Source: a virus (taxonomy: Duplodnaviria; Heunggongvirae; Uroviricota; Caudoviricetes). Taken from it: a stretch of 19,115 bases of DNA. The translations under genes were made by a program, and so were the position numbers. Below, one piece after another: positions 1 through 16,124 of the stretch (the first letter of the stretch is position 1; the number at the start of each line of letters is the position of its first letter). The stretch lies in the IMG/VR virus record IMGVR_UViG_2617270954_000002; one strand, given 5' to 3'. Under the pieces are notes generated by a model. It saw nothing but the letters and a program-made list of their open reading frames with translations. It was not told where the DNA came from and searched no databases.

Positions 1-195
1 GGTTACGGGGCGGCGACCTCGCGGTTTTTCACTATTTATGAAAATTTTTCAGGGAAAATCGTGTCGGTACTTCTCGAATATAACTTTTTGTTTTTTTTAA
101 TATTACATCCGTAAAGGTCCGACATGAAAGTGTCCGAAAATGCCTTTTTCTGGCGTTTTCATGTCGGGCCTTGTATTTGATAATGGGTTGTTTTC
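1..195 (+). other. cos: cos region: cosN (cohesive-end sequence GGGCGGCGACCT at 8-19) followed by cosB-like terminase binding region
   Basis: Bases 8-60 read GGGCGGCGACCTCGCGG..TATTTATGAAAATTTT, matching my recollection of the lambda left end; Nu1 starts about 190 bp downstream, the same spacing as lambda. Three copies of a TCRTGTCGG core sit at 59-67 (direct), 119-127 (inverted) and 159-167 (direct). Confidence 0.7.
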
Positions 196-744
196 ATGAA
201 GGTTAATAAAAAGAGGCTTGCCGAAATTTTCAACGTGGACCCGCGGACGATTGAACGCTGGCAGTCTCAGGGACTCCCTTGCGCCTCCAAAGGTAGTAAG
301 GGCATTGAATCTGTATTTGATACTGCCATGGCAATTCAGTGGTATGCGCAGAGGGAAACTGATATCGAAAACGAAAAGCTCCGCAAAGAACTGGACGATT
401 TGCGTGCGGCAGCGGAGTCAGATTTACAACCCGGCACCATTGACTATGAACGCTACCGGCTCACAAAAGCGCAGGCAGATGCGCAGGAACTGAAAAATGC
501 CCGTGAAGACGGAGTAGTGCTGGAAACTGAACTGTTTACCTTCATTCTGCAACGTGTGGCACAGGAGATTTCGGGGATACTTGTGCGTGTGCCGTTGACA
601 TTACAGCGTAAATATCCGGACATTTCACCATCACACCTTGATGTGGTGAAAACTGAAATCGCGAAAGCCTCCAATGTTGCAGCTAAGGCCGGTGAAAACG
701 TGGGCGGGTGGATCGATGATTTCAGACGCGCAGAAGGCAGCTAA
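196..744 (+). CDS. Nu1: terminase small subunit (gpNu1-like), N-terminal winged-HTH DNA-binding domain
   Basis: 182 aa ORF; [24 protein letters not shown] and ..[28 protein letters not shown] recalled as closely matching lambda gpNu1; sits directly after cos. Confidence 0.9.
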
Positions 745-2644
745 TGCAGCCGGTGCGATAGCTACAGGGCTTTTATCTCTCATTATTCCTGTTCCACTGA
801 CGACAGTTCAGTGGGCCAATAAACATTATTACCTTCCTAAAGAGTCGTCTTATACCCCCGGGCGGTGGGAAACACTGCCGTTTCAGGTTGGCATCATGAA
901 CTGTATGGGCAACGATCTGATTCGCACGGTTAACCTGATTAAATCTGCCCGTGTTGGTTATACAAAGATGTTGCTGGGAGTGGAGGCTTATTTTATTGAG
1001 CATAAATCACGCAACAGCCTTCTTTTTCAGCCCACGGATTCTGCTGCTGAAGATTTTATGAAATCTCATGTGGAACCCACGATCAGGGATGTGCCGGTTT
1101 TACTCGATCTTGCACCGTGGTTTGGGCGTAAACATCGTGATAATACCCTCACGCTGAAACGTTTTTCATCCGGTGTGGGGTTCTGGTGTCTGGGTGGTGC
1201 GGCAGCAAAAAACTACCGTGAAAAATCCGTGGATGTGGTCTGTTATGACGAGCTTTCCTCGTTCGAACCGGATGTCGAAAAAGAGGGTTCGCCAACCCTG
1301 CTTGGGGATAAACGTATTGAGGGCTCTGTATGGCCCAAATCCATTCGCGGCTCGACGCCTAAAATCAAAGGCACCTGCCAGATCGAAAAAGCGGCCAACG
1401 AGTCGGCGCATTTCATGCGTTTTTATGTGCCCTGCCCACACTGTGGGGAGGAGCAGTATCTGAAATTTGGCGATGAATCCACGCCTTTTGGCCTTAAATG
1501 GGAGAAGGACAGCCCCGAAAGCGTTTTCTACCTCTGTGAACATCATGGCTGCGTGATCCATCAGTCTGAGCTTGACCAGAGCAACGGGCGGTGGATCTGT
1601 GAAAACACGGGGATGTGGACCCGTGACGGTCTGACGTTTTTCAGCGCCGCGGATAATGAAATTCCGCCGCCGCGCTCCATCACGTTCCATATCTGGACGG
1701 CGTACAGTCCGTTCACCACCTGGGTACAGATAGTCTATGACTGGCTGGATGCACTGAAAGATCCCAACGGCCTGAAAACCTTTGTGAACACCACGCTGGG
1801 CGAGACCTGGGAAGAGGCCGTGGGCGAAAAACTCGATCACCAGGTACTGATGGATAAGGTCGTGCATTACACGGCGGCGGTGCCAGCCCGGGTGGTTTAT
1901 CTGACGGCGGGCATTGACTCGCAGCGAAACCGTTTTGAGATGTATGTCTGGGGATGGGCTCCGGGAGAGGAAGCCTTTCTGGTGGATAAAATCATCATTA
2001 TGGGGCGTCCCGATGAGGAAGAGACGCTGTTACGTTTGGATGCGGCGATCAACAAAAAATACTGCCATGCAGACGGAACCGAAATGACCATTTCCCGTGT
2101 CTGCTGGGACACCGGGGGGATCGATGGTGAAATTGTCTATCAGAGGTCAAAAAAACACGGTGTTTTCCGGGTGCTGCCGGTAAAAGGCGCATCTGTCTAT
2201 GGCAAGCCGGTGATCACCATGCCGAAAACCCGCAATCAGCGGGGCGTGTATCTGTGTGAAGTGGGGACGGACACCGCAAAAGAAATTCTCTATGCCCGTA
2301 TGAAAGCCGATCCCACGCCTGCGGATGAAGCCACGTCGTATGCCATCCGTTTTCCTGATGATCCGGAGATTTTTTCGCAGACAGAGGCGCAGCAACTGGT
2401 GGCGGAAGAGCTTGTGGAGAAGTGGGAAAAAGGAAAGATGCGTCTGCTGTGGGATAACAAAAAGCGGCGTAACGAAGCGCTGGACTGCCTGGTGTATGCC
2501 TATGCGGCATTACGTGTGTCCGTGCAACGCTGGCAGCTTGATCTGGCTGTACTGGCAAAATCCCGGGAAGAAGAGACGACCCGGCCAACCCTTAAAGAAC
2601 TGGCAGCGAAGCTGTCCGGAGGAGTGAATGGTTACAGTCGCTGA
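716..2644 (+). CDS. A: terminase large subunit (gpA-like; ATPase/endonuclease)
   Basis: ORF 674..2644 aligns along its length with recalled lambda gpA (YYLPKES.[12 protein letters not shown], [28 protein letters not shown]). Start placed at the in-frame ATG at 716, which overlaps the Nu1 3' end as in lambda; ATG 674 is the alternative. Confidence 0.88.
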
Positions 2645-2834
2645 ACTACAGGCGCTGCGTCAGGCGCGCCTTGATTTATTAACCGGTAAACGGGTGGTGT
2701 CTGTCCAGAAAGATGGTCGCAGAATTGAATATACGGCGGCTTCTCTGGATGAGCTTAACCGGGCGATCAATGATGCGGAGTCGGTACTGGGGACAACCCG
2801 ACGTCGCCGTCGTCCGCTGGGAGTGAGGTTATGA
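2628..2834 (+). CDS. W: head-tail joining protein gpW-like
   Basis: 68 aa, same length as lambda gpW, with motif LLTGKRVVSVQKDGRRIEYTAAS; overlaps the A stop and the B start (ATGA). Confidence 0.85.
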   Translation: MVTVAELQALRQARLDLLTGKRVVSVQKDGRRIEYTAASLDELNRAINDAESVLGTTRRRRRPLGVRL

Positions 2835-4423
2835 AACGAACGCCTGTCCTGATTGATGTGAACGGCGTTCCGCTTCGTGAGAGTCTCAGCTACAACGGGG
2901 GCGGCGCAGGATTTGGCGGGCAAATGGCTGAGTGGTTGCCACCGGCGCAGAGTGCCGATGCAGCCCTGCTGCCCGCGTTGCGTCTGGGGAATGCCCGGGC
3001 AGATGATCTGGTGCGCAATAACGGAATAGCGGCCAATGCGGTGGCCCTGCATAAGGATCACATTGTCGGGCATATGTTTCTGATTAGCTACCGTCCGAAC
3101 TGGCGCTGGCTGGGGATGCGGGAGACCGCGGCAAAAAGTTTTGTCGATGAGGTGGAGGCGGCCTGGTCAGAATACGCAGAAGGGATGTTTGGTGAGATCG
3201 ACGTGGAAGGGAAACGCACGTTTACGGAATTTATCCGTGAAGGTGTGGGCGTTCATGCGTTTAACGGCGAAATCTTTGTGCAGCCGGTCTGGGATACGGA
3301 GAGCACGCAACTGTTTCGTACGCGTTTTAAAGCCGTGAGTCCGAAACGGGTGGACACGCCAGGACACGGTATGGGGAACCGTTTTCTGCGGGCCGGTGTG
3401 GAGGTCGATCGATATGGTCGTGCCGTTGCGTACCATATCTGTGAGGATGATTTTCCTCGCTCCGGGAGTGGACGATGGGAACGGATCCCGCGTGAACTTC
3501 CCACCGGGCGTCCGGCCATGCTGCATATTTTCGAGCCGGTGGAGGACGGGCAGACCCGTGGAGCCAATCAGTTTTACAGCGTAATGGAACGGCTGAAGAT
3601 GCTCGATTCCCTGCAGGCAACACAGCTTCAGTCGGCCATAGTGAAGGCGATGTATGCAGCGACGATTGAAAGTGACCTTGATACCGAAAAGGCCTTTGAA
3701 TATATCGCCGGTGCGCCGCAGGGGCAGAAGGATAATCCGCTTATTAATATTCTGGATAAGTTCTCCACCTGGTATGACACGAATAGCGTGACGCTGGGCG
3801 GTGTCAAAATTCCGCACCTTTTCCCCGGTGATGATCTGAAACTTCAGACCGCGCAGGATTCAGACAATGGATTTTCGGCGCTTGAACAGGCGCTGCTGCG
3901 GTATATCGCCGCCGGTCTTGGCGTTTCCTACGAACAGTTGTCCCGTGATTACTCGAAGGTCAGTTATTCAAGTGCCCGCGCATCCGCCAATGAGTCGTGG
4001 CGCTATTTTATGGGGCGGCGAAAATTTATTGCGTCCCGGCTGGCCACGCAGATGTTTTCCTGCTGGCTGGAAGAGGCACTTCTTCGGGGGATTATTCGTC
4101 CGCCACGGGCACGTTTTGATTTTTATCAGGCGCGTTCAGCCTGGTCACGGGCTGAGTGGATTGGTGCCGGAAGAATGGCCATTGACGGGCTCAAGGAGGT
4201 TCAGGAATCGGTGATGCGTATTGAGGCCGGACTGAGCACGTATGAGAAAGAGCTGGCGCTGATGGGCGAGGATTATCAGGACATTTTCCGCCAGCAGGTC
4301 AGGGAATCTGCAGAGCGGGAAAAAGCCGGACTCTCACGTCCGGTGTGGATAGCGCAGGCGTATCAGCAGCAGATAGCGGAGAGTCGCAGGCCGGAAGAGG
4401 AGACAACACCACGTGAGACGTAA
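2831..4423 (+). CDS. B: portal protein gpB-like
   Basis: 530 aa (lambda gpB about 533 aa); long blocks recalled as matching lambda B, e.g. FEPVEDGQTRGANQFYSVME, LLRYIAAGLGVSYEQLSR, GRMAIDGLKEVQESVM. Confidence 0.9.
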   Translation: MKRTPVLIDVNGVPLRESLSYNGGGAGFGGQMAEWLPPAQSADAALLPALRLGNARADDLVRNNGIAANAVALHKDHIVGHMFLISYRPNWRWLGMRETAAKSFVDEVEAAWSEYAEGMFGEIDVEGKRTFTEFIREGVGVHAFNGEIFVQPVWDTESTQLFRTRFKAVSPKRVDTPGHGMGNRFLRAGVEVDRYGRAVAYHICEDDFPRSGSGRWERIPRELPTGRPAMLHIFEPVEDGQTRGANQFYSVMERLKMLDSLQATQLQSAIVKAMYAATIESDLDTEKAFEYIAGAPQGQKDNPLINILDKFSTWYDTNSVTLGGVKIPHLFPGDDLKLQTAQDSDNGFSALEQALLRYIAAGLGVSYEQLSRDYSKVSYSSARASANESWRYFMGRRKFIASRLATQMFSCWLEEALLRGIIRPPRARFDFYQARSAWSRAEWIGAGRMAIDGLKEVQESVMRIEAGLSTYEKELALMGEDYQDIFRQQVRESAEREKAGLSRPVWIAQAYQQQIAESRRPEEETTPRET

Positions 4424-5918
4424 TCTTTCACACATTATTGCAGCAGCATTCAATGAACCGCTGCTTCTGGAGCCCGCCTATGCGCGGGTTTTCTTTTGCG
4501 CGCTCGGGCGCGAGATGGGGGCAGCAAGTCTTTCGGTACCACAACAGCAGGTACAGTTTGATGCTCCCGGAATGCTGGCTGAAACGGACGAGTACATGGC
4601 CGGAGGTAAACGACCGGCCCGTGTTTACCGGGTGGTGAACGGTATTGCTGTACTGCCGGTGACAGGCACGCTGGTGCACCGGCTGGGCGGTATGCGGCCA
4701 TTTTCCGGAATGACAGGCTATGACGGCATTGTCGCCTGTCTTCAGCAGGCAATGGCAGATAGCCAGGTGCGGGGCGTACTGCTGGACATTGACAGTCCGG
4801 GCGGGCAGGCCGCCGGTGCGTTTGACTGTGCTGACATGATTTACCGCCTCCGTCAGCAGAAGCCGGTCTGGGCACTGTGCAATGACACGGCCTGTTCTGC
4901 AGCCATGCTGCTGGCGTCGGCCTGCTCCCGACGGCTGGTTACCCAGACATCCCGTATCGGCTCCATTGGTGTGATGATGAGCCATGTCAGCTATGCCGGT
5001 AATCTGGCGCAGGCCGGTGTGGATATCACGCTGATTTACTCAGGGGCGCACAAGGTGGATGGCAATCAGTTTGAAGTCTTACCGGAAGAGGTGCGTCAGG
5101 ACATGCAGCAGCGGATTGATGCGGCGCGCCGGATGTTTGCCGAAAAAGTGGCGATGTATACCGGTCTGTCTGTTGATGCAGTCACGGGAACAGAGGCCGC
5201 CGTTTTTGAAGGTCAGTCCGGCATTGAGGCCGGGCTGGCGGATGAATTAATCAATGCGTCGGATGCCATCAGTGTGATGGCCACGGCGCTGAACAGTAAT
5301 GTCAGAGGAGGCACTATGCCGCAATTAACTGCAACGGAAGCTGCCGCGCAGGAGAACCAGCGAGTGATGGGGATCCTGACGTGTCAGGAAGCGAAAGGAC
5401 GTGAACACCTTGCCACGATGCTGGCAGGACAACAGGGCATGAGCGTTGAACAGGCCCGGGCGATTCTGACCGCGGCAGCACCACAGCAGCCGGTGGCATC
5501 CACGCAGAGTGAAGCCGATCGCATTATGGCGTGTGAAGAGGCTAAAGGTCGTGAACAACTGGCGGCAACGCTGGCGGCGATGCCGGAGATGACGGTGGAA
5601 AAAGCCCGCCCGATCTTGGCTGCCTCACCGCAGGCGGATGCCGGGCCCTCACTTCGTGATCAGATCATGGCCCTGGATGAGGCAAAAGGGGCAGAAGCGC
5701 AGGCTGAAAAACTGGCGGCGTTTCCCGGAATGACGGTGGAGGCTGCCCGCGACATTCTGTCCTCATCGCCGGATAAAGCAGAACCGGTCTCTGCATCCAC
5801 AACTGCCCTGTTTGAACATTTCATGGCGAATCATTCACCGGCAGCGGTGCGGGGTGGCGTGTCACAGACGTCAGCAGACGGTGATGCGGACGTGAAAATG
5901 CTCATGGCCATGCCATGA
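4413..5918 (+). CDS. C: prohead protease/scaffold protein gpC-like (S49/ClpP-type fold), C-terminal scaffold domain
   Basis: 501 aa; N-terminal FNEPLLLEPAYARVFFCAL and the VWALCND..SAA..LASA / TSRIGSIGVMM region match recalled lambda gpC; overlaps the B stop. Confidence 0.85.
   Translation: MRRNLSHIIAAAFNEPLLLEPAYARVFFCALGREMGAASLSVPQQQVQFDAPGMLAETDEYMAGGKRPARVYRVVNGIAVLPVTGTLVHRLGGMRPFSGMTGYDGIVACLQQAMADSQVRGVLLDIDSPGGQAAGAFDCADMIYRLRQQKPVWALCNDTACSAAMLLASACSRRLVTQTSRIGSIGVMMSHVSYAGNLAQAGVDITLIYSGAHKVDGNQFEVLPEEVRQDMQQRIDAARRMFAEKVAMYTGLSVDAVTGTEAAVFEGQSGIEAGLADELINASDAISVMATALNSNVRGGTMPQLTATEAAAQENQRVMGILTCQEAKGREHLATMLAGQQGMSVEQARAILTAAAPQQPVASTQSEADRIMACEEAKGREQLAATLAAMPEMTVEKARPILAASPQADAGPSLRDQIMALDEAKGAEAQAEKLAAFPGMTVEAARDILSSSPDKAEPVSASTTALFEHFMANHSPAAVRGGVSQTSADGDADVKMLMAMP
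5316..5918 (+). CDS. Nu3: nested in-frame scaffold protein (Nu3-like), internal start within the C frame
   Basis: In-frame ATG at 5316 preceded by a strong Shine-Dalgarno (AGAGGAGG, 5304-5311); about 600 nt, close to the recalled lambda Nu3 length; shares its stop with C. Confidence 0.5.
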   Translation: MPQLTATEAAAQENQRVMGILTCQEAKGREHLATMLAGQQGMSVEQARAILTAAAPQQPVASTQSEADRIMACEEAKGREQLAATLAAMPEMTVEKARPILAASPQADAGPSLRDQIMALDEAKGAEAQAEKLAAFPGMTVEAARDILSSSPDKAEPVSASTTALFEHFMANHSPAAVRGGVSQTSADGDADVKMLMAMP

Positions 5919-5954
5919 AGTCAGTGCTGACCATCAATATGAGGTTTTAACAAA

Positions 5955-6301
5955 ATGGTGACGAAAACCATCACTGAACAGCGTGCGGAAGTACGTATTT
6001 TTGCCGGTAATGATCCGGCTCATACCGCCACAGGCAGCAGCGGGATTTCTCAGCAACACCGGCACTGACGCCCCTGATGCTGGATGAAGCCACCGGGAAA
6101 CTGGTGGTCTGGGACGGACAGAAAGCCGGTAGTGCGGCTGGCATACTGGTACTGCCGCTTGAAGGCACAGAGACGGTGCTGACCTATTACAAGTCGGGGA
6201 CCTTTGCGACGGAGGCAATCCGCTGGCCTGACAGTGTGGATGAACACAAAAAGGCAAATGCCTTTGCCGGCACAGCCCTGAGTCACGCGGCTCTGCCGTA
6301 A
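5955..6301 (+). pseudogene. D: head decoration protein gpD-like, interrupted by a frame break (candidate pseudogene or sequencing indel)
   Basis: ATG at 5955 gives MVTKTITEQRAEVRIFAGNDPAHTATGSSGISQQHRH then TGA at 6066-6068. The rest of the D homolog (LTPLMLDEATGKLVVWDG...YKSGTF...AFAGTA) continues to 6301 in the -1 frame. Lambda gpD is recalled as one continuous 110 aa protein. Confidence 0.6.
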
Positions 6302-6308
6302 CACGTTA

Positions 6309-6330
6309 TCAGGCCACCATGGTGGCCTGA
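6309..6330. repeat. 22-bp perfect palindrome (TCAGGCCACCATGGTGGCCTGA) in the D-E intergenic region
   Basis: The sequence equals its own reverse complement; it lies between the D stop (6301) and the E start (6359). Confidence 0.6.
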
Positions 6331-6358
6331 CTGATTTCTGAATGAAAGGAACTGATTT

Positions 6359-7387
6359 ATGGGATTGTTTACGACCCGCCAGTTACTCGGTTATACCGAA
6401 CAAAAAGTTAAATTCCGTGCGCTATTTCTGGAGCTGTTTTTCCGCCGTACGGTGAATTTCCACACCGAAGAGGTGATGCTGGACAAAATTACCGGAAAAA
6501 CGCCGGTGGCGGCCTATGTCTCCCCGATCGTTGAAGGAAAAGTGCTGCGCCATCGTGGTGGTGAAACCCGCGTGTTGCGTCCGGGCTACGTCAAGCCGAA
6601 ACACGAATTTAATTACCAGCAGGCGGTGGAGCGCCTTCCCGGTGAAGATCCGGCTCAGCTGAACGACCCGGCCTACCGTCGTCTGCGTATCATCACTGAT
6701 AACCTCAAACAGGAAGAGCACGCTATTGTGCAGGTGGAAGAAATGCAGGCGGTGAATGCCGTGCTGTATGGCAAATATACGATGGAAGGAGACCAGTTCG
6801 AGAAAATTGAGGTTGATTTTGGCAGATCGACGAAGAATAACATCATACAGGGTAGCGGTAAGGAGTGGTCAAAACAGGACCGTGACACGTTCGACCCGAC
6901 ATATGATATCGACCTTTTCTGTGATCAGGCCAGTGGTCTTGTGAATATTGCCATTATGGACGGTACCGTCTGGCGTCTGCTGAATGGCTTTAAGCTGTTC
7001 CGCGAAAAAATGGATACCCGTCGCGGTTCAAATTCACAACTCGAAACGGCAGTGAAAGACCTGGGCGCAGTGGTATCCTTCAAGGGGTATTACGGCGATC
7101 TGGCCATTGTGGTAGCGAAAACATCTTATGTGGCAGAGGACGGTACCGAAAAACGTTATCTGCCGGAGGGCACGCTGGTCCTGGGAAATACGGCTGCTGA
7201 GGGCATTCGTTGCTATGGTGCCATTCAGGATGCGCAGGCGTTGTCCGAAGGTGTGGTGGCCTCTTCCCGTTATCCGAAACACTGGCTGACCGTGGGCGAT
7301 CCGTCCTGTGAATTCACCATGACGCAGTCCGCTCCGCTGATGGTGCTGCCGGATCCGGATGAGTTTGTGGTGGTACAGGTGAAATAA
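6359..7387 (+). CDS. E: major capsid protein gpE-like
   Basis: 342 aa (lambda gpE 341 aa); motifs PGYVKPKHE, AIVQVEEMQAV, KLFREKMDTRRGSNSQLETAVKDLG and FTMTQSAPLMVLPDPDEFV match recalled lambda E. Confidence 0.92.
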   Translation: MGLFTTRQLLGYTEQKVKFRALFLELFFRRTVNFHTEEVMLDKITGKTPVAAYVSPIVEGKVLRHRGGETRVLRPGYVKPKHEFNYQQAVERLPGEDPAQLNDPAYRRLRIITDNLKQEEHAIVQVEEMQAVNAVLYGKYTMEGDQFEKIEVDFGRSTKNNIIQGSGKEWSKQDRDTFDPTYDIDLFCDQASGLVNIAIMDGTVWRLLNGFKLFREKMDTRRGSNSQLETAVKDLGAVVSFKGYYGDLAIVVAKTSYVAEDGTEKRYLPEGTLVLGNTAAEGIRCYGAIQDAQALSEGVVASSRYPKHWLTVGDPSCEFTMTQSAPLMVLPDPDEFVVVQVK

Positions 7388-7395
7388 TCCGTGAG

Positions 7396-7424
7396 CGGGG
7401 GCGAAATGCCCCCGTGTCTTTTTT
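7396..7424 (+). terminator. candidate rho-independent terminator/stem-loop after the capsid gene
   Basis: Stem CGGGGGC (7396-7402), loop GAAAT, stem GCCCCCG (7408-7414), followed by TGTCTTTTTT. Confidence 0.5.
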
Positions 7425-7439
7425 CACAGGGGGCTGGAT

Positions 7440-7809
7440 ATGGCAACAAAAGAAGAAAATCAGAAACGTCTTCGTGAACTGGCTGGCCTGCTGGGGCGCG
7501 AGGCGGATATGTCGGGGAGTGCTGCGGATATCGCACAGCGTGTGGCAGAGTGGGAAGAGGAGGTTTGCGCATCGGAAAATGAAATCGCAGATGTTGATGA
7601 TACCGTTTATGAGCAGGCATACAGGAACACCGGTGAGGATGACGTTCGGTATTCTGGAACGTATCATGCTTCTGAAGTGTTTTTACCTGTGCGGTGTTGA
7701 CGATGAAACAGGTGAGCCTGTTGAGCATGTTGATGCTGGCAGAGTAATTCTGATGCCCCCCTCAGTGGCAAAAGACATGGTCAGGAGCGGAATGGCCGTT
7801 TATGCGTGA
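7440..7809 (+). pseudogene. FI: DNA-packaging protein gpFI-like, split across two reading frames
   Basis: Frame of 7440 gives an N-terminus like recalled lambda FI (..LRELAGLLGRE...AADIAQRVAEWEEEV) and stops at 7698-7700. The FI-like C-terminus (LLKCFYLCGVDDETGEPV...AKDMVRSGMAVYA) is in the +1 frame, ending at 7809 and overlapping the FII start (ATGCGTGA). Break lies roughly within 7600-7650. Confidence 0.55.
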
Positions 7810-8155
7810 TTTTGAGAATTCCTTTGATGCTGCCCTTGCCGGGGTGGACAGAACGATTGTTGAAGTGATGGGGCTCTGTGCGCAGTTCACCTCGGGGGCA
7901 CAGTGTGGCAGCGAAGTTCAGGGGGTTTTTGACGATCCGGAGTCGCTGGGGTTTGCCGGTAGCGGGGTCCGTATTGAAGGAAGCAGCCCGTCATTATTTG
8001 TGCGGACGGATACGGTTCGTGCCGTGCGGCGTGGTGACACGCTGACCATTAATGGTGAGACATTCTGGGTGGATCGTGTTTCTCCGGATGACGGGGGTAG
8101 CTGTTATCTCTGGCTCAACCGTGGGCAACCACCCGCAGTTAACCGGCGACGATAA
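7802..8155 (+). CDS. FII: head-tail connector/tail attachment protein gpFII-like
   Basis: 117 aa, same as lambda FII; GVFDDPE, GVRIEGSSPSLFVRTD and FWVDRVSPDDGGSCYLWL..PPAVNRRR match recalled lambda FII. Confidence 0.88.
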   Translation: MRDFENSFDAALAGVDRTIVEVMGLCAQFTSGAQCGSEVQGVFDDPESLGFAGSGVRIEGSSPSLFVRTDTVRAVRRGDTLTINGETFWVDRVSPDDGGSCYLWLNRGQPPAVNRRR

Positions 8156-8169
8156 ACGCAGGGTGAATT

Positions 8170-8744
8170 ATGGCGATAAAAGGGCTTGATCAGGCGATTG
8201 ACAATCTGAGCCGGGTTCGTAAAAACGCCATTCCGGCTGCTTCTGCAATGACCATTAACCGCGTGGCCACAACGGCGATTAATCAGTCTTCATCACAGGT
8301 TGCCCGGGAGACAAAGGTTCGCCGGAAACTGGTTAAGGAACGGTCCAGACTGAAACGGGCGACGGTCAGAAATCCGAATGCCAGAATTATCGTTAACCGC
8401 GGTGATCTCCCTGTGATTAAGCTGGGGATCAGAATGCTGGGGCGTCGTCCGAACAGCATACTCAAAGCCGGTCAGCATCGTTATCAGCGGGCATTTATCC
8501 AGCGATTAAATAATGGGCGCTGGCATGTTATGCAACGTCTTCCCCAGGCCAGATATGACGGTGGCATGTCATGCAGCGTGTGGCCGGGAAAAATCGTTAC
8601 CCCATTGATGTGGTGAAAATTCCGATGGCGGTGCCGCTGACCACGGCGTTTAAACAGAATATTGAGCGGATACGGCGTGAGCGCCTTCCGAAAGAGCTGG
8701 GCTATGCGCTGCAGCATCAACTGAGGATGGTAATAAAGCGATGA
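8170..8744 (+). pseudogene. Z: minor tail protein gpZ-like, disrupted by a 41-bp imperfect tandem duplication causing a frame change
   Basis: N-terminus MAIKGLDQAIDNLSR..QVARETKVRRKLVKER.RLKRATV..NRGDLPVIKLG runs in the frame of 8170 through GRWHVMQR and stops at 8614-8616. A second WHVMQR, followed by the lambda-like C-terminus [54 protein letters not shown], starts at 8562 in another frame and ends at 8742-8744. Confidence 0.6.
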
Positions 8745-9136
8745 AACATACTGAACTCCGTGCAGCCGTACTGGATGCACTGGAGAAGCATGACACCGGG
8801 GCGACGTTTTTTGATGGTCGCCCCGCTGTTTTTGATGAGGCGGATTTTCCGGCAGTTGCCGTTTATCTCACCGGCGCTGAATACACGGGCGAAGAGCTGG
8901 ACAGCGATACCTGGCAGGCGGAGCTGCATATCGAAGTTTTCCTGCCTGCTCAGGTGCCGGATTCAGAGCTGGATTCGTGGATGGAGTCCCGGATTTATCC
9001 GGTGATGAGCGATATCCCGGCACTGTCAGATTTGATCACCAGTATGGTGGCCAGTGGCTATGACTATCGGCGCGACGATGATGCGGGCCTGTGGAGTTCA
9101 GCCGATCTGACTTATGTCATTACCTATGAAATGTGA
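8741..9136 (+). CDS. U: minor tail protein gpU-like (tail terminator)
   Basis: 131 aa; appears near-identical to my recollection of lambda gpU ([54 protein letters not shown]...); start overlaps the Z stop (ATGA). Confidence 0.9.
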
Positions 9137-9143
9137 GGACGCT

Positions 9144-9896
9144 ATGCCTGTACCAAATCCAGTAATGCCGGTGAAAGGTGCCGGGACCACACTGTGGGTT
9201 TATAAGGGGAACGGTGACCCTTATGCGAACCCGCTTTCAGACGTTGACTGGTCACGTCTGGCAAAAGTTAAAGACCTGACGCCGGGCGAGATGACGGCAG
9301 AATCCTACGATGATAACTACCTGGATGATGAAGACGCAGACTGGACCGCGACCGGGCAGGGGCAGAAATCTGCAGGTGATACCAGTTTTACGCTGGCCTG
9401 GAAACCGGGAGAGGAATGTCAGAAAGGGCTTATAGGCTGGTTTGAAAGCGGCGATGTCCGGGCCTATAAAATCCGTTTTCCGAATGGCACGGTGGATGTG
9501 TTTCGTGGCTGGGTCAGCAGTATCGGTAAGGCCGTGACGGCGAAAGAAGTGATCACCCGCACGGTGAAAGTCACTAACGTGGGTAAACCTTCTGTAGCGG
9601 AAGAACGCAGCAAAATTACGCCGGTCAGTGCGATTAAGGTGACGCCGACATCCGGTACGGTGGCAAAAGGGAAAACAACCACCCTGACGGTTTCTTTTGA
9701 GCCGGAAAGTGCAACCGACAAGACGTTCAGAGCGGTTTCCGCCGATCCGTCGAAAGCCACCATTAGTGTGAAAGATATGACAATTACGGTAAACGGCGTG
9801 GCGACAGGTAAGGTGCAGATCCCTGTGGTGAGCGGAAATGGTCAGTTCGCCGCAGTGGCTGAAGTCACCGTTACTGAAGCGGGCGCTGCAGGGTAA
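9144..9896 (+). CDS. V: major tail tube protein gpV-like with C-terminal Ig-like (BIG2-type) domain
   Basis: ORF 9114..9896; lambda-like start [22 protein letters not shown] at ATG 9144 with a GAGGA Shine-Dalgarno upstream; long stretches match recalled lambda V. Confidence 0.9.
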
Positions 9897-9909
9897 ACGG
9901 AGGTAATAC

Positions 9910-10341
9910 ATGTTTCTGAAAACAGAACAATTTGAATATAACGGTGTGTCTGTCACGCTTTCCGAATTGTCTGCGCTGCAGCGTATCGAGCATCTTGCCC
10001 TCCTGAAACGGCGTGCAGAACAGGCAGAATCCTGCGGCAACCTGCAGGTTAGCGTGGAAGATCTCGTCAGAACCGGCGCGTTTCTGGTGGCGATGTCCCT
10101 GTGGCATAACCATCCACAGAAAACGCAGTCACCGTCAATGAATGAGGCCGTGATGAAGATAGAGCAGGAAGTGCTCACCACCTGGCCTGCCGATGCCATT
10201 GCCCGGGCGGAAGACGTGGTGTTGTGCCTGTCCGGGATGATCGAAGCTGTTCGTCCGGATACTGATATTACTGAAGTGGCGAAAAATAACACGCTGACTG
10301 ATGATGATTTTTCTGCGGGAAAGTCTTCGACGGCGAGCTGA
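9910..10341 (+). CDS. G: tail assembly chaperone gpG-like
   Basis: 143 aa; MFLKTEQFEYNGVSVTLSELSALQRIEHLAL..TGAFLVAMSLWHNHPQKTQ matches recalled lambda G. Confidence 0.88.
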   Translation: MFLKTEQFEYNGVSVTLSELSALQRIEHLALLKRRAEQAESCGNLQVSVEDLVRTGAFLVAMSLWHNHPQKTQSPSMNEAVMKIEQEVLTTWPADAIARAEDVVLCLSGMIEAVRPDTDITEVAKNNTLTDDDFSAGKSSTAS

Positions 10342-10781
10342 ACTTTGCCCTCAGACTGGCGCGTGAGATGGGGAGACCCGACTGGCGCGCCATGCTTGCC
10401 GGGATGACATCCACCGAATATGCCGACTGGCACCGTTTTTACCGCACGCATTATTTTCAGGATACCCAGCTGGATATGCATTTTTCCGGGCTGACGTACG
10501 CTGTACTCAGCCTGTTTTTTTGCGATCCGGATATGCATCCCTCTGATTTCAGTCTGCTTGTCCCCCGGCATGAGGAAGAGCAGGTGGAGAGGCCGGATGA
10601 GGACAAAATGCTGATGCAGAAAGCGGCAGGACTTGCCGGAGGCGTCCGGTTCGGTGGGGACGGAGGGCGCGATATTTTATCGTCTGCGGATGTGGCGGAT
10701 GTCATGGTGGATGATGCCGCATTAATGATGGCTTCAGCGGGGATTCCGGGAGGTGTGAGATATGTCCCAGCCGGTTGGTGA
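9910..10781 (+). CDS. GT: tail assembly chaperone gpG-T fusion made by programmed -1 ribosomal frameshift
   Basis: Slippery heptamer GGGAAAG at 10317-10323 near the 3' end of G; the -1 frame continues VFDGELNFALRLAREMGRPDWRAMLAGMTSTEYADWHRFY... (lambda gpT-like) to the stop at 10779-10781. Confidence 0.75.
10317..10323 (+). promoter_or_regulatory. programmed -1 frameshift slippery site (G GGA AAG) for G-T
   Basis: Exact GGGAAAG heptamer in the G frame, 6 codons before the G stop; the T frame is open downstream. Confidence 0.7.
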
Positions 10782-13323
10782 TCTTGTTATTGACCTGAGT
10801 CTGGATGCTGTCCGTTTCGATGAGCAGATGAGCCGGGTAAGGCGTCATTTTTCAGGTCTGGATACCGACGCCAGAAAAACCGCCAGTGCTGTTGAACAGG
10901 GCCTGAGCCGCCAGGCGCTGGCTGCACAAAAAGCCGGGATTTCCGTCGGGCAGTATAAAGCGGCCATGCGAACCCTGCCCGCACAGTTTACGGATATCGC
11001 CACGCAGCTTGCCGGTGGTCAGAATCCCTGGTTGATCCTGCTGCAACAGGGCGGTCAGGTGAAGGACTCCTTCGGCGGGATGATCCCCATGTTCAGGGGG
11101 CTTGCCGGTGCGATCACCCTGCCGATGGTCGGGGTCACCTCGCTGGCGGTGGCGACAGGTGCGCTGGCGTACGCCTGGTACCAGGGCGACGCCACGCTTT
11201 CAGAATTTAATAAAACGCTGGTCCTTTCCGGCAATCAGGCCGGACTGACTGCCGATCGTATGCTGACGCTCTCAAGAGCCGGGCAGGCAGCAGGGCTGAC
11301 GTTTAACCAGGCGAGAGAGTCACTGGCAGCCCTGGTGAATGCCGGTGTGCGTGGTGGTGAACAGTTTGATGCCATCAACCAGAGTGTCGCGCGTTTTGCG
11401 TCTGCATCCGGTGTGGAGGTGGATAAAGTCGCTGAAGCCTTCGGGAAGCTGACCACTGACCCGACGTCGGGACTGATGGCGATGGCGCGCCAGTTCCGTA
11501 ACGTGACGGCAGAGCAGATTGCGTATGTTGCACAGCTGCAGCGTTCCGGAGACGAGGCCGGGGCATTGCAGGCGGCGAACGATATCGCCACGAAAGGCTT
11601 TGATGAGCAGACCCGTCGCCTGAAAGAAAACATGGGAACACTGGAGACCTGGGCGGATAAAACAGGGAAGGCATTCAAATCGATGTGGGATGCCATTCTG
11701 GATATCGGTCGTCCGGAATCCTCAGCGGATATGCTCGCCAGTGCGCAGAGGGCATTTGATGAGGCGGATAAAAAATGGCAGTGGTACCAGAGCCGGAGCC
11801 AGCGCCGGGGAAAGACCTCCTCTTTTCGTGCGAACCTTCAGGGGGCATGGGATGACCGGGAAAATGCCCGTCTGGGTCTGGCAGCGGCCACGCTGCAGTC
11901 GGATATGGAAAAAGCCGGTGAACTGGCGGCAAGGGACAGGGCTGAGCGTGAGTCGTCACAGCTGAAGTATACCGGAGAGGCGCAGAAGGCGTATGAGCGC
12001 CTGCAGACGCCGCTGGATAAATATACCGCCCGTCAGAAAGAGCTGAATAAGGCCCTGAAAGACGGAAAAATCCTGCAGGCGGATTACAACACGCTGATGG
12101 CGTCGGCAAAAAAGGATTATGAATCGACGCTGAAAAAGCCGTCAGGTGTGAAGGTGTCTGCCGGTGAGCGCCAGGAAGACCGGGCGCATGCAGCCCTGCT
12201 GGCGCTTGAAACCGAGCTCAGGACGCTGGAAAAACACAGCGGTGTGAATGAGAAAATCAGCCAGCAGCGCCGGGATTTATGGGAAGCGGAAAGTCAGTAT
12301 GTGGTCCTGAAAGAGGCCGCCACGAAACGGCAGTTATCTGAGCAGGAAAAATCCCTGCTGGCTCATGAGAAAGAGACGCTGGAGTACAAACGCCAGCTGG
12401 CTGAGCTGGGAGACAAGATTGAACACCAGAAGCGGCTGAATGAGCTGGCACAGCAGGCGGCGCGGTTTGAACAGCAGCAAAGCGCGAAGCAGGCGGCAAT
12501 CAGCGCAAAAGCCCGCGGCCTCACCGACCGTCAGGCGCAGCGGGAGTCGGAAGAGCAGCGCCTTCGTGAGGTGTACGGTGATAATCCGGCTGCGCTGGCG
12601 AAGGCCACATCGGCACTGAAGAACACCTGGTCTGCGGAGGAGCAGCTTCGTGGAAGCTGGATGGCCGGGATGAAGTCCGGCTGGGGAGAGTGGGCGGAAA
12701 GTGCGACGGACAGTTTTTCGCAGGTTAAAAGTGTGGCCACGCAGACCTTTGACGGTATTGCACAGAATATGGCGGCGATGCTGACCGGCAGCGAACAGAA
12801 CTGGCGGGGATTCACCCGTTCCGTGCTGTCCATGATGACAGAAATTCTGCTTAAGCAGGCAATGGTGGGGATTGTCGGGAGTATCGGCAGCGCCATTGGC
12901 GGGGCTGTTGGTGGCGGCGCATCCGCGTCAGGCGGTACAGCCATTCAGGCCGCTGCGGCGAAATTCCATTTTGCAACCGGAGGATTTACGGGAACCGGCG
13001 GCAAATATGAGCCAGCGGGGATTGTTCACCGTGGTGAATTTGTCTTCACAAAGGAGGCAACCAGCCGGATTGGCGTGGGGAATCTCTACCGGCTGATGCG
13101 CGGCTATGCCACCGGTGGTTATGTCGGTACACCGGGCAGTCTGGCTGACAGCCGGTCGCAGGCGTCCGGGACGTTTGAGCAGAATAACCATGTGGTGATT
13201 AACAACGACGGCACGAACGGGCAGATAGGTCCGGCTGCTCTGAAGGCGGTGTATGACATGGCCCGCAAGGGTGCCCGTGATGAAATTCAGACACAGATGC
13301 GTGATGGTGGACTGTTCTCCTGA
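10762..13323 (+). CDS. H: tail tape measure protein gpH-like
   Basis: 853 aa (same as recalled lambda gpH); N-terminus PVGDLVIDLSLDAVRFDEQM and C-terminal region AMVGIVGSIGSAIGGAVGGGASASGG...GTNGQIGPAALKAVYDMARKGARDEIQTQMRDGGLFS match lambda H. Confidence 0.92.
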   Translation: MSQPVGDLVIDLSLDAVRFDEQMSRVRRHFSGLDTDARKTASAVEQGLSRQALAAQKAGISVGQYKAAMRTLPAQFTDIATQLAGGQNPWLILLQQGGQVKDSFGGMIPMFRGLAGAITLPMVGVTSLAVATGALAYAWYQGDATLSEFNKTLVLSGNQAGLTADRMLTLSRAGQAAGLTFNQARESLAALVNAGVRGGEQFDAINQSVARFASASGVEVDKVAEAFGKLTTDPTSGLMAMARQFRNVTAEQIAYVAQLQRSGDEAGALQAANDIATKGFDEQTRRLKENMGTLETWADKTGKAFKSMWDAILDIGRPESSADMLASAQRAFDEADKKWQWYQSRSQRRGKTSSFRANLQGAWDDRENARLGLAAATLQSDMEKAGELAARDRAERESSQLKYTGEAQKAYERLQTPLDKYTARQKELNKALKDGKILQADYNTLMASAKKDYESTLKKPSGVKVSAGERQEDRAHAALLALETELRTLEKHSGVNEKISQQRRDLWEAESQYVVLKEAATKRQLSEQEKSLLAHEKETLEYKRQLAELGDKIEHQKRLNELAQQAARFEQQQSAKQAAISAKARGLTDRQAQRESEEQRLREVYGDNPAALAKATSALKNTWSAEEQLRGSWMAGMKSGWGEWAESATDSFSQVKSVATQTFDGIAQNMAAMLTGSEQNWRGFTRSVLSMMTEILLKQAMVGIVGSIGSAIGGAVGGGASASGGTAIQAAAAKFHFATGGFTGTGGKYEPAGIVHRGEFVFTKEATSRIGVGNLYRLMRGYATGGYVGTPGSLADSRSQASGTFEQNNHVVINNDGTNGQIGPAALKAVYDMARKGARDEIQTQMRDGGLFS

Positions 13324-13331
13324 GGTGGACG

Positions 13332-13661
13332 ATGAAAACCTTCCGCTGGAAAGTGAAACCCGGGATGGATGTGACATCGGCTCCTTCCGTCAGGGAGGTG
13401 CGCTTTGGTGATGGCTATTCCCAGCGTGCGCCTGCCGGGCTGAACGCTGACCTGAAAACGTACAGCGTGACGCTGTCTGTCTCCCGTGAGGAGGCCACGG
13501 CGCTGGAGTCGTTTCTGGCTGAGCACGGGGGCTGGAAGGCCTTTCTGTGGACGCCGCCTTATGGTTACAGGCAGATAAAGGTGACCTGCGCAAAATGGTC
13601 GTCGCAGGTCAGTATGTTGCGTGTTGGGTTCAGCGCAGAGTTTAAACAGGTGGTGAACTGA
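13332..13661 (+). CDS. M: minor tail protein gpM-like
   Basis: 109 aa, same as lambda M; position after H; sequence recalled as lambda M-like. Confidence 0.85.
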   Translation: MKTFRWKVKPGMDVTSAPSVREVRFGDGYSQRAPAGLNADLKTYSVTLSVSREEATALESFLAEHGGWKAFLWTPPYGYRQIKVTCAKWSSQVSMLRVGFSAEFKQVVN

Positions 13662-14359
13662 TGCAGGATATCCGGCAGGAAACACTGAATGAATGCACCC
13701 GTGCGGAGCAGTCGGCCAGCGTGGTGCTCTGGGAAATCGATCTGACAGAGGTCGGTGGAGAACGTTATTTTTTCTGTAATGAGCAGAACGAAAAAGGTGA
13801 GCCGGTCACCTGGCAGGGGAGGCAGTATCAGGCGTATCCCATTCAGGGGAGCGGTTTTGAACTGAATGGCAAAGGCACCAGTACGCGGCCCACGCTGGCA
13901 GTCTCTAACCTGTACGGCATGGTCACCGGTATGGTGGAAGATATGCAGAGTCTGGTCGGCGGAACGGTGGTCCGGCGTAAGGTTTACGCCCGTTTTCTGG
14001 ATGCGGTGAACTTCGTCAACGGAAACAGAGACGCCGATCCGGAGCAGGAGGTGATCAGCCGCTGGCGCATCGAGCAGTGCAGCGAACTGAGCGCGGTGAG
14101 TGCCTCCTTTGTACTGTCCACGCCGACGGAAACGGATGGCGCTGTTTTTCCGGGGCGTATCATGCTGGCCAACACCTGCACCTGGACCTATCGCGGTGAT
14201 GAGTGCGGTTATCACGGTCCGGCAGTCGCGGATGAATATGACCAGCCGACGTCCGATATCACGAAGGATAAATGCAGCAAATGCCTGAGCGGCTGTAAGT
14301 TTCGCAATAACGTCGGCAACTTTGGCGGCTTCCTTTCCATTAACAAACTTTCGCAGTAA
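13661..14359 (+). CDS. L: minor tail protein gpL-like (tail tip complex; lambda L binds an Fe-S cluster via C-terminal cysteines)
   Basis: 232 aa, same as lambda L; start overlaps the M stop (TGATG); Cys-rich C-terminus (CTWTYRGDECGY...DKCSKCLSGCKFRNN). Confidence 0.85.
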   Translation: MQDIRQETLNECTRAEQSASVVLWEIDLTEVGGERYFFCNEQNEKGEPVTWQGRQYQAYPIQGSGFELNGKGTSTRPTLAVSNLYGMVTGMVEDMQSLVGGTVVRRKVYARFLDAVNFVNGNRDADPEQEVISRWRIEQCSELSAVSASFVLSTPTETDGAVFPGRIMLANTCTWTYRGDECGYHGPAVADEYDQPTSDITKDKCSKCLSGCKFRNNVGNFGGFLSINKLSQ

Positions 14360-14363
14360 TCCC

Positions 14364-15107
14364 ATGACAGAGACAGAATCAGCGATTCTGGCGCACGCCC
14401 GGCGATGTGCGCCAGCGGAGTCGTGCGGCTTCGTGGTAAGCACGCCGGAGGGGGAAAGATATTTCCCCTGCGTGAATATCTCCGGTGAGCCGGAGGCGTA
14501 TTTCCGGATGGCTCCGGAGGACTGGCTGCAGGCAGAGATGCAGGGTGAGATTGTGGCGCTGGTCCACAGCCACCCCGGTGGTCTGCCCTGGCTGAGTGAG
14601 GCTGACCGGCGGCTGCAGGTGCAGAGCGATTTGCCGTGGTGGCTGGTCTGCCGGGGGGCGATTCACAAGTTCCGCTGTGTGCCGCATCTCACCGGGCGGC
14701 GCTTTGAGTACGGGGTGACGGACTGTTACACACTGTTCCGGGATGCTTACCATCTGGCGGGGATTGAGATGCCGGATTTTCATCGCGGGGATGACTGGTG
14801 GCGTCACGGTCAGAATCTCTATCTTGACAATATGGAGGCTACTGGTTTTTACCGTGTCGCACTGACAGAGGCGCAGCCGGGCGATGTGCTGCTGTGCTGT
14901 TTTGGTTCATCGGTGCCGAATCACGCCGCCATTTACTGCGGCGACGGTGAGCTGCTGCACCATATTCCTGAACAACTGAGTAAACGAGAGAGGTATACCG
15001 ACAAATGGCAGCGACGCACACACTCCCTCTGGCGTCACCGGGAATGGCACGCATCTGCCTTTACGGGGATTTGCAACGATTTGGCCGCCGCATCGACCTT
15101 CGAGTGA
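14364..15107 (+). CDS. K: tail tip assembly protein gpK-like (JAB/MPN metalloprotease-like plus NlpC/P60-like domains)
   Basis: ORF 14322..15107; lambda-like start MTETESAILAHARRCAPAESCGFV at ATG 14364; HSHPGG (JAMM-like) motif and a downstream Cys/His region; overlaps the I start by about 100 nt as in lambda. Confidence 0.8.
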   Translation: MTETESAILAHARRCAPAESCGFVVSTPEGERYFPCVNISGEPEAYFRMAPEDWLQAEMQGEIVALVHSHPGGLPWLSEADRRLQVQSDLPWWLVCRGAIHKFRCVPHLTGRRFEYGVTDCYTLFRDAYHLAGIEMPDFHRGDDWWRHGQNLYLDNMEATGFYRVALTEAQPGDVLLCCFGSSVPNHAAIYCGDGELLHHIPEQLSKRERYTDKWQRRTHSLWRHREWHASAFTGICNDLAAASTFE

Positions 15108-15646
15108 AAACGGGGGCTGAAGCCATCCGGGCACTGGCCACACAGCTCCCGGCGTTTCGTCAGAAACTGAGCGATGGCTGGTATCAGGTACGGATTGCCG
15201 GGCGGGATGCAGGAGAAACCGAATTATCATCCCGTCTTAATGAGCCGCTGGCAAATGGTGCCGTGATCCACATCGTGCCGCGTCTTGCGGGAGCAAAAAG
15301 TGGCGGTGTGTTTCAGGCGGTGCTGGGTGCGGCGTTGATTGCTACGGCAATCTGGATGCCGGGGATCAGTATCGCTTTCAGTGACATTCTCTTTTCAATG
15401 GGTGCGGCGATGACGCTTGGTGGTGTGGCGCAGATGCTGGCACCGAAAGCCAGAACTCCCCGTACACAGACAACGGATAACGGCAAACAGAACACCTATT
15501 TCTCCTCACTGGATAACATGGTTGCCCAGGGCAATGTCCTGCCTGTTCTGTACGGTGAAATGCGCGTGGGGTCACGTGTGGCATCTCAGGAGATCAGCAC
15601 GGCAGATGAAGGGGATGGTGGTCAGGTTGTGGTAATTGGGCGGTAA
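15005..15646 (+). CDS. I: tail tip assembly protein gpI-like
   Basis: 213 aa; YFSSLDNMVAQGNVLPVLYGEMRVGSRVASQEISTADEGDGGQVVVIGR matches the recalled lambda I C-terminus. Confidence 0.82.
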   Translation: MAATHTLPLASPGMARICLYGDLQRFGRRIDLRVKTGAEAIRALATQLPAFRQKLSDGWYQVRIAGRDAGETELSSRLNEPLANGAVIHIVPRLAGAKSGGVFQAVLGAALIATAIWMPGISIAFSDILFSMGAAMTLGGVAQMLAPKARTPRTQTTDNGKQNTYFSSLDNMVAQGNVLPVLYGEMRVGSRVASQEISTADEGDGGQVVVIGR

Positions 15647-15669
15647 TATTATTTTACTCATGTTCTAAC

Positions 15670-15700
15670 TGATTTAATATTTATATCGAACACTGATAAT
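15670..15700 (+). promoter_or_regulatory. candidate sigma70-type promoter for the lipoprotein gene (weak call)
   Basis: AT-rich stretch with a -10-like GATAAT (15695-15700) about 20 nt upstream of the ATG and weak -35-like hexamers (TGATTT/TTAATA) about 17-19 nt further upstream; no strong consensus. Confidence 0.2.
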
Positions 15701-15719
15701 TATTCTATTGGTTAGCTAT

Positions 15720-16058: not shown

Positions 16059-16082
16059 TAGTTAATCCTGTCGTAACTCATG

Positions 16083-16110
16083 AGCCGCCTTTTGGGCGGC
16101 TTTGTTGTTT
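16083..16110 (+). terminator. candidate rho-independent terminator downstream of the lipoprotein gene
   Basis: Stem AGCCGCC (16083-16089), loop TTTTG, stem GGCGGCT (16095-16101), followed by TTGTTGTTT. Confidence 0.55.
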
Positions 16111-16124
16111 ATGGAGTGTGAGGA

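What the first reader, a model, noticed from the sequence alone, without database searches (positions are those of the whole stretch)
6040..6080. Frame break in the decoration protein gene D
The D homolog reads lambda-like through ..NDPAHTATGSSGISQQ, hits TGA at 6066-6068, and continues as ..LTPLMLDEATGKLVVWDG... in the -1 frame. Restoring one base near CAGCAACACCGG (about 6051-6062) would give a continuous protein with lambda-like spacing. Without D, lambda cannot stably package a full-length genome, so a real break would make the prophage defective.
Basis: partly seen in the sequence, partly recalled or inferred. Interest (0 to 1): 0.5.

Follow-up and report, generated by a model that had tools for sequence, protein, structure and literature searches.

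The report
Assembly-artefact frame break in head-decoration gene
The broken head-decoration gene is really in the deposited sequence, but it is almost certainly an assembly error: two nearly identical prophages of one E. coli O104:H4 strain were merged into a single contig, so it does not show a defective prophage.

Summary
The D/SHP-type head-decoration gene starts at 5955, stops at TGA 6066-6068 and continues in the -1 frame to 6301. One base is missing at 6050-6053 compared with every intact allele.

The break is very probably not biological. The window is a whole contig (JNPZ01000054.1) of a draft assembly of E. coli 2-177-06_S4_C3 (O104:H4, ST678). It was built from 100-bp Illumina reads with MaSuRCA. 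Complete genomes of this lineage carry two paralogous lambdoid prophages, A and B, each with an intact 115-aa gene.

Over window 1-8425 there are 353 variable columns. The window matches A at 214 and B at 137, in 51 alternating blocks, with no private substitution. Natural third phages show 205-255 private differences in the same segments.

The only private differences are two indels, one in D and one in FI. Both sit in clusters of adjacent A/B differences. Both are reproduced exactly by choosing, column by column, from a gapped A/B alignment. A third frame break, in Z, lies at an A-to-B junction.

The deleted 28-mer is absent from 5,426 complete E. coli genomes and from two large contig collections.

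Verdict: an artefact of a chimeric consensus; low interest.

The parts
5955..6068 (+). 5' fragment of the head-decoration (gpD/SHP) gene. Codons 1-33 are authentic; QHRH* after the lesion is out of frame; the stop is TGA 6066-6068. A GAGG ribosome-binding site lies at 5941-5944.
6050..6053 (+). Lesion site: one base is missing compared with allele B (TCTCAGGCA) and allele A (TCTTCTGCA); the window reads TCTCAGCA. It lies in a 3-nt A/B difference cluster.
6054..6301 (+). 3' part of the same gene in the -1 frame (this frame is open from 6014). Gene callers annotate only 6077-6301 (74 aa, Pfam PF02924 HDPD).
1..8425 (.). Stretch where the contig alternates between the prophage A and prophage B haplotypes of ST678 genomes. 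There are 353 variable columns (214 A, 137 B), 51 blocks and no private substitution.
7440..7809 (+). FI gene broken by an extra C at 7647. A reads GACGTTGG, B reads GCTTTCGG, the window reads GACGTTCGG. This is the same kind of lesion as in D.
8170..8744 (+). Z gene split into 8170-8616 and 8571-8744 at an A-to-B junction (8558/8559). The GRWHVMQR-coding motif is present once from each allele.
8559..9275 (+). Pure B-type block (185 of 185 variable sites) set in an otherwise A-type stretch.
4413..5918 (+). Upstream neighbour: C/Nu3-type S49 protease-scaffold gene, intact. It gives the synteny context.
6359..7387 (+). Downstream neighbour: major capsid protein E, intact. It gives the synteny context.

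Best explanation
The frame break is an artefact of a chimeric consensus. The sequenced strain (O104:H4, ST678) carries two lambdoid prophages, A and B. Their Nu1-to-Z regions are about 96% identical, and each has an intact 115-aa SHP-type decoration gene. The draft assembler merged sequence from both copies into one contig and chose, position by position, one copy or the other. Where A and B differ at several adjacent bases, their best alignment contains a paired insertion column and deletion column. Taking one column from A and the other from B changes the length by one base. This produced the missing base in D, the extra base in FI and the out-of-frame junction in Z. What is shown: the contig's composition from A and B, the absence of private substitutions, the position of the lesions in difference clusters, and the fact that column choice reproduces them. 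What is inferred: the assembler step itself, and that both resident D genes are intact in this particular isolate.
For: (1) Source. The window is contig JNPZ01000054.1 of GCA_000703565.1, E. coli 2-177-06_S4_C3. Table S1 of PMC6222053 lists the isolate as O104:H4, ST678, 191 contigs. The methods give HiSeq 100-bp reads assembled with MaSuRCA 2.3.2.
(2) Complete genomes of that lineage (FORC_069, O104:H4 2011C-3493 and others) carry two copies of this region, each annotated with an intact 348-nt head-decoration gene.
(3) Three-way alignment over 1-8425 gives 353 variable columns. The window equals A at 214 and B at 137, in 51 alternating blocks. The only private differences are the two indels.
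(4) Control. The T309.Ta3 prophage, phage 21 and L005 show 205-255 private differences from A and B in the same segments; the window shows 2-3.
(5) Clusters of at least 3 A/B differences within 6 nt cover 2.3% of the stretch, yet they hold both private indels. The chance of that is about 5e-4.
(6) Under unit edit distance, the unique optimal A/B alignment at the FI site yields the window sequence by column choice, and so do 4 of the 7 co-optimal alignments at the D site. The Z segment can be derived in the same way (a weak test).
(7) From 9284 to 17105, where A and B are mostly more divergent, the window is pure A at all but one of about 1,650 variable sites.
(8) The lesion is unique. No complete E. 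coli genome has it. The deleted 28-mer has 0 hits in metagenome and genome contigs, while the intact B 29-mer has 41 hits in metagenome contigs. The truncated FI and Z products occur on this one contig only among about 15 billion proteins.
Against: No reads or coverage could be examined, so the artefact is inferred from the sequence pattern alone. The B-type block at 8559-9275 lies where A and B are only about 80% identical, which a simple merge-when-similar model does not predict. From 16090 to 17105 A and B are about 96% identical, yet the window stays pure A there. The J region (17138-19016) has 53 sites that match neither A nor B of FORC_069, so the isolate's prophage content is not identical to FORC_069. 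One private substitution (13321) is a nonsense change that this model does not explain. I did not verify how MaSuRCA/Celera builds its consensus; that part rests on general knowledge of overlap-consensus assemblers.
Confidence: 0.86

Rival explanations
1. The deletion is genuine. A real prophage in this isolate, possibly a true recombinant of A and B formed by gene conversion with patchy heteroduplex repair, has lost one base in D. With the FI and Z breaks, it would be a defective prophage.
For: The break is present in the deposited sequence. Three late genes (D, FI, Z) are broken and H has a private nonsense codon, which superficially resembles prophage decay. Independent repair of small bulges in an A/B heteroduplex could in principle mimic column-wise choice.
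Against: Random decay should leave many more private substitutions than indels. Only one is seen over roughly 17 kb, against three frame breaks. About 50 haplotype switches in 8.4 kb, some only 3-12 nt apart, without a single new mutation, is not what natural recombination gives. Natural relatives carry hundreds of private differences. No other genome or metagenome contig searched carries the lesion. Homologous exchange keeps the reading frame, whereas all three breaks sit where the A/B alignment needs gaps.
Confidence: 0.08
2. An ordinary sequencing or base-calling indel error, unrelated to repeat collapse, dropped one base.
For: Relative to allele B the loss is one G of a GG pair, a context in which some platforms under-call. 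The assembly is an unfinished draft of 191 contigs.
Against: The data are Illumina HiSeq reads, which by general knowledge have low indel error rates, and a 2-base run is not error-prone. The extra C in FI is not a homopolymer change. Both indels fall in the 2.3% of sequence made of A/B difference clusters, which random error would not do.
Confidence: 0.05
3. The gene is expressed across the break by programmed -1 ribosomal frameshifting, or it works as two separate polypeptides.
For: The -1 frame overlaps the zero frame over 6014-6068. Lambdoid late operons do use one programmed -1 frameshift, at G/GT; its G GGA AAG motif is present in phase at 10317-10323.
Against: There is no X XXY YYZ slippery heptamer in the zero frame between 6014 and 6065 (read). 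All homologues are single 115-aa ORFs. There is no Shine-Dalgarno sequence upstream of ATG 6077. A structural protein needed in several hundred copies per capsid (general knowledge of gpD) could not be supplied by rare slippage.
Confidence: 0.01

Closest known systems
SHP, the head-decoration protein of phage 21 (PDB 1TD0, 1TD3, 1TD4), homologue of lambda gpD
   Same: The repaired window gene is 115 aa and aligns over its full length with SHP at E 4e-68. It lies between the C/Nu3 protease-scaffold gene and the major capsid gene E, as in phage 21. It matches Pfam PF02924.
   Different: As deposited, the window copy lacks one base and is split into a 37-aa ORF and a -1 frame remainder. It also differs from SHP at a few residues, for example SQAT or SSAT where SHP has SSPT.
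Lambda gpD (PDB 1C5E, 7VII)
   Same: Same family and same genome position. It matches residues 17-110 at E about 1e-28.
   Different: It is much more distant than SHP, and the N-terminal region differs. The head-gene cluster of this window is of the phage 21 type (95.7% DNA identity to phage 21 across the gene).
Collapsed-repeat (chimeric consensus) errors in short-read draft assemblies of genomes with several lambdoid prophages
   Same: One contig draws every variant from two co-resident paralogues. The indels occur only where the paralogues' alignment needs gaps. The lesions are found in no other assembly.
   Different: It is not confirmed at read level. One 717-nt pure-B block and a third haplotype in J are not fully accounted for.

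Membership tests
gpD/SHP head-decoration protein family (Pfam PF02924 HDPD) | Sequence match to the family profile | tested here: met
   PF02924 is recorded for the 74-aa fragment. The repaired protein matches SHP 1TD3 at E 4e-68 and gpD 1C5E at E 4e-28.
gpD/SHP head-decoration protein family (Pfam PF02924 HDPD) | Position between the protease-scaffold gene (C/Nu3) and the major capsid gene (E) | tested here: met
   Window order is 4413-5918 (S49 peptidase), 5955-6301 (D), 6359-7387 (E). The order is the same in annotated relatives and in phage 21.
gpD/SHP head-decoration protein family (Pfam PF02924 HDPD) | Single uninterrupted ORF of about 110-115 codons | tested here: not met
   The window copy stops at 6066-6068 and continues in the -1 frame. 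All relatives are intact at 348 nt.
gpD/SHP head-decoration protein family (Pfam PF02924 HDPD) | Forms trimers that bind and stabilise the expanded capsid | not testable with these tools
   This needs protein expression and capsid binding or phage stability assays.
Chimeric consensus of collapsed paralogous repeats (assembly artefact) | Every variant position is drawn from one or other paralogue present in the same genome lineage, with no private substitutions | tested here: met
   351 of 353 variable columns in 1-8425 equal A or B of FORC_069, and the other two are the indels. Natural third phages show 205-255 private differences.
Chimeric consensus of collapsed paralogous repeats (assembly artefact) | The sequenced strain carries both paralogues | tested here: inconclusive
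   The isolate is O104:H4 ST678, and complete genomes of that lineage carry both copies. A-specific and B-specific alleles are both present in the contig. The other contigs of this assembly were not examined.
Chimeric consensus of collapsed paralogous repeats (assembly artefact) | Length errors occur only where the alignment of the paralogues needs gaps, and column-wise choice reproduces them | tested here: met
   Both indels lie in difference clusters that cover 2.3% of the sequence. Column choice from optimal edit-distance alignments gives the window sequence at D and FI and can give it at Z.
Chimeric consensus of collapsed paralogous repeats (assembly artefact) | Reads support only the two intact haplotypes, and the contig has about twice the coverage of single-copy sequence | not testable with these tools
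Prophage pseudogene formed by mutational decay | Frame-breaking indels are accompanied by private substitutions, and/or the lesion is shared by related isolates | tested here: not met
   There is one private substitution in about 17 kb. The lesion is absent from 5,426 complete genomes and from two contig collections.
Programmed -1 ribosomal frameshift | Slippery heptamer in the overlap, and the two-frame arrangement conserved in homologues | tested here: not met
   No X XXY YYZ motif lies in phase between 6014 and 6065. All homologues are single ORFs.

The most novel reading that the evidence does not exclude
The contig is physically real. Extensive gene conversion between two co-resident prophages, with independent repair of small heteroduplex bulges, produced a patchwork prophage in which D, FI and Z were thrown out of frame exactly at clusters of adjacent differences. 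That would be a recombination-driven route to prophage inactivation.
Probability: 0.06. Interest if true: 0.4.

Novelty: not a real feature. Interest (0 to 1): 0.08.

Why it matters
This matters mainly as a caution. The deposited record annotates a truncated decoration protein, FI and Z (KDX03648-KDX03650). These could be read as evidence of a defective prophage in an O104:H4 isolate. Fine-scale chimeras of paralogous prophages in short-read drafts can create such pseudo-pseudogenes. A comparison against the two paralogues from a finished genome of the same lineage exposes the artefact without needing reads. If the break were real, the prophage would lack its capsid-stabilising protein and, going by lambda D-minus phages (general knowledge), could not stably package a full-length genome. 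That would be an ordinary case of prophage decay.

Tried and rejected
I looked for the same deletion elsewhere. A 71-nt query across the lesion found no identical copy in 5,426 complete E. coli genomes. An exact 28-mer had 0 hits in metagenome and genome contigs. An exact-protein look-up of the 74-aa fragment gave three other contigs, but none shares the lesion: L005 has a different A-run insertion upstream, and L007 and L008 are contigs cut inside the gene.

I tested whether the 53 sites in J that match neither A nor B come from a third prophage of finished ST678 genomes. They do not appear to. The best matches (99.4% over 341 nt, 97.2% over 2 kb) are in unrelated strains. This part remains unexplained.

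A search of the paper library for the accession JNPZ found nothing. The strain name then led to the right paper.

I considered a homopolymer under-call (GG to G) as a sufficient cause. I rejected it because the data are Illumina reads and the FI insertion is not a homopolymer change.

I considered programmed frameshifting and rejected it: there is no slippery site, and all homologues are single ORFs.

Full report
**Observation.** An ORF starts at ATG 5955, preceded by GAGG at 5941-5944. It encodes MVTKTITEQRAEVRIFAGNDPAHTATGSSGISQQHRH and stops at TGA 6066-6068. The -1 frame is open from 6014 and reads ...SATPALTPLMLDEATGKLVVWDG...SHAALP, ending at 6301. Close relatives span 462 bases where the window has 461. 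In alignment, the single gap falls at 6050-6053. Intact alleles encode 115 aa.

**Identity of the gene.** With one base restored, the protein aligns end to end with phage 21 SHP (PDB 1TD3, E 4e-68) and more distantly with lambda gpD (1C5E and 7VII, E about 1e-28). The gene lies between the S49 protease-scaffold gene and the major capsid gene, as in phage 21 and in annotated prophages. The closest known protein is SHP rather than lambda D itself.

**Where the window comes from.** An exact-protein look-up showed that the window is the whole 19,115-bp contig JNPZ01000054.1 of draft assembly GCA_000703565.1. The strain is Escherichia coli 2-177-06_S4_C3. Table S1 of PMC6222053 lists the isolate as O104:H4, ST678, with 191 contigs and 5.57 Mb. 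The methods describe Illumina HiSeq 100-bp reads assembled with MaSuRCA 2.3.2.

**The contig is a mixture of two paralogous prophages.**
- The best whole-window matches are complete genomes of the O104:H4 lineage (FORC_069, NCCP15648, 2009EL-2071, 2011C-3493), at only 97.6-97.8% identity.
- These genomes hold a second, related prophage. Its D and FI regions are the closest match to the window locally.
- I aligned window 1-8430 with both FORC_069 copies (A = L004, B = L009). There were 353 variable columns within 1-8425. The window equals A at 214 and B at 137.
- It alternates between the two in 51 blocks. Some blocks are a single site and some span about 900 nt. Switches are sometimes only 3-12 nt apart.
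- There is not one private substitution. The only private differences are the missing base in D and an extra C at 7647 in FI.

**Control.** I ran the same comparison on natural third phages: the T309.Ta3 prophage, phage 21 and the prophage in L005. They gave 205-255 private differences in the same 3.5-5.2 kb segments, against 2-3 for the window. So the window is not simply another natural mosaic allele. It is built only from the two copies resident in its own lineage. I made this inference from the sequence before the paper confirmed that the isolate is O104:H4 ST678.

**Why the frame breaks arise.** Within D the haplotype runs as follows: A at 5949-5987, B at 6005-6064, A at 6093, B at 6115-6138, and A from 6184. 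The lesion lies in a 3-nt difference cluster: A reads TCTTCTGCA, B reads TCTCAGGCA, and the window reads TCTCAGCA.
- Under unit edit distance, 4 of the 7 co-optimal A/B alignments at this site contain one insertion column and one deletion column. Taking the first column from B and the second from A gives exactly the window sequence.
- At FI, A reads GACGTTGG and B reads GCTTTCGG. The unique optimal alignment is gapped. Column-wise choice gives GACGTTCGG, which is the window.
- Clusters of at least 3 A/B differences within 6 nt make up 2.3% of the 8.4 kb, yet they contain both private indels. The chance of that is about 5e-4.
- The third broken gene, Z (fragments 8170-8616 and 8571-8744), switches from A to B at 8558/8559. 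This is inside a divergent stretch with no shared sequence to support homologous exchange. The GRWHVMQR-coding motif is kept once from each allele. This segment can also be derived by column choice from an optimal A/B alignment, although that test is permissive.

**Other support.**
- From 9284 to 17105, where A and B are mostly more divergent, the window is pure A at all but one of about 1,650 variable sites.
- Both resident D genes are annotated as intact in finished genomes of the lineage.
- The lesion is unique. None of 1,592 matching complete-genome records has it.
- The deleted 28-mer has no hit in the metagenome or genome contig collections. The intact B 29-mer has 41 hits in metagenome contigs.
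- The truncated FI and Z products are on record for this one contig only.
- The other contigs that carry the 74-aa fragment do so for unrelated reasons.

**Rival explanations.**
- *Genuine decay.* This should give many private substitutions per indel. Here there is one in about 17 kb against three frame breaks, and all three sit at places where the A/B alignment is ambiguous.
- *Plain base-calling error.* This does not explain the location of the lesions. It is also unlikely for Illumina data at a 2-base run or at a non-homopolymer insertion.
- *Programmed frameshifting.* This is excluded because there is no in-phase slippery heptamer between 6014 and 6065 and because the homologues are uniformly single ORFs. 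The window's true programmed frameshift site, G GGA AAG at 10317-10323 at the end of G, is a useful contrast.
- *Real gene conversion with patchy heteroduplex repair.* This could in principle give the same pattern, and I cannot exclude it without reads. About 50 switches in 8.4 kb with no new mutation makes it improbable.

**Weak points.**
- No reads or coverage were available.
- The pure-B block at 8559-9275 lies where A and B are only about 80% identical.
- The stretch 16090-17105 stays pure A even though A and B are about 96% identical there.
- The J region (17138-19016) has 53 sites that match neither FORC_069 copy and no finished genome better than 97.2%. The isolate probably carries a further J-bearing prophage, or a different J allele.
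- The private change GGA to TGA at 13321 removes the last four codons of H and is not explained by the model.
- The description of how the assembler builds its consensus is inference from general knowledge. It was not tested.

**Verdict.** The frame break exists in the deposited sequence. With about 0.86 confidence it is a chimeric-consensus artefact from two collapsed paralogous prophages. It is not a real pseudogene and not evidence of a defective prophage. Novelty: not a real feature. Interest: low.

Noticed in passing
window 7440-7809 (extra C at 7647): The FI DNA-packaging gene is frameshifted by one extra base. It is annotated as an 86-aa product plus a 47-aa ORF. The site is an A/B difference cluster and the sequence is a column-wise mix of the two alleles.
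   Followed up: yes
window 8170-8744 (junction 8558/8559) and 8559-9275: The tail gene Z is split at an abrupt switch from the A-type to the B-type allele, and the GRWHVMQR motif is encoded twice, once from each allele. A 717-nt pure B-type block follows, covering the 3' end of Z, U and the start of V.
   Followed up: partly
window 13321-13323: A private G-to-T change turns GGA into TGA and removes the last four codons of the tape-measure gene H, which ends 12 nt before M starts. It is the only private substitution found between 1 and 17105.
   Followed up: partly
window 17138-19016 (gene J): 53 sites match neither prophage A nor B of FORC_069, interleaved with A-like and B-like sites. No complete E. 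coli genome matches this 2-kb stretch better than 97.2%. This suggests a third J haplotype in the mixture.
   Followed up: partly
window 10317-10323: G GGA AAG lies in phase near the 3' end of the G gene (9910-10341), just before T (10368-10781). It matches the lambda-type programmed -1 frameshift motif for the G/GT tail assembly chaperones.
   Followed up: partly
L005 (GCA_901420315.1, CABDVM010000002.1), 6750-19589: A related prophage has many genes called in pieces (portal in four, plus V, H and L). Its D gene is broken by an extra A in an A-run near the start. This looks like homopolymer errors in that assembly.
   Followed up: no
L007 1-53 (ENA ERZ652101 NODE_1031): The metagenome contig begins with what looks like untrimmed Nextera adapter sequence (…AGATGTGTATAAGAGACAG) fused to the middle of the D gene. 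That is why a 74-aa fragment was called there.
   Followed up: no
window 16725-18602 (-) and 9252-10571 (-): There are long open frames of 625 and 439 codons antisense to J and to the V-G-T genes. They are probably non-coding shadows of the sense genes.
   Followed up: no
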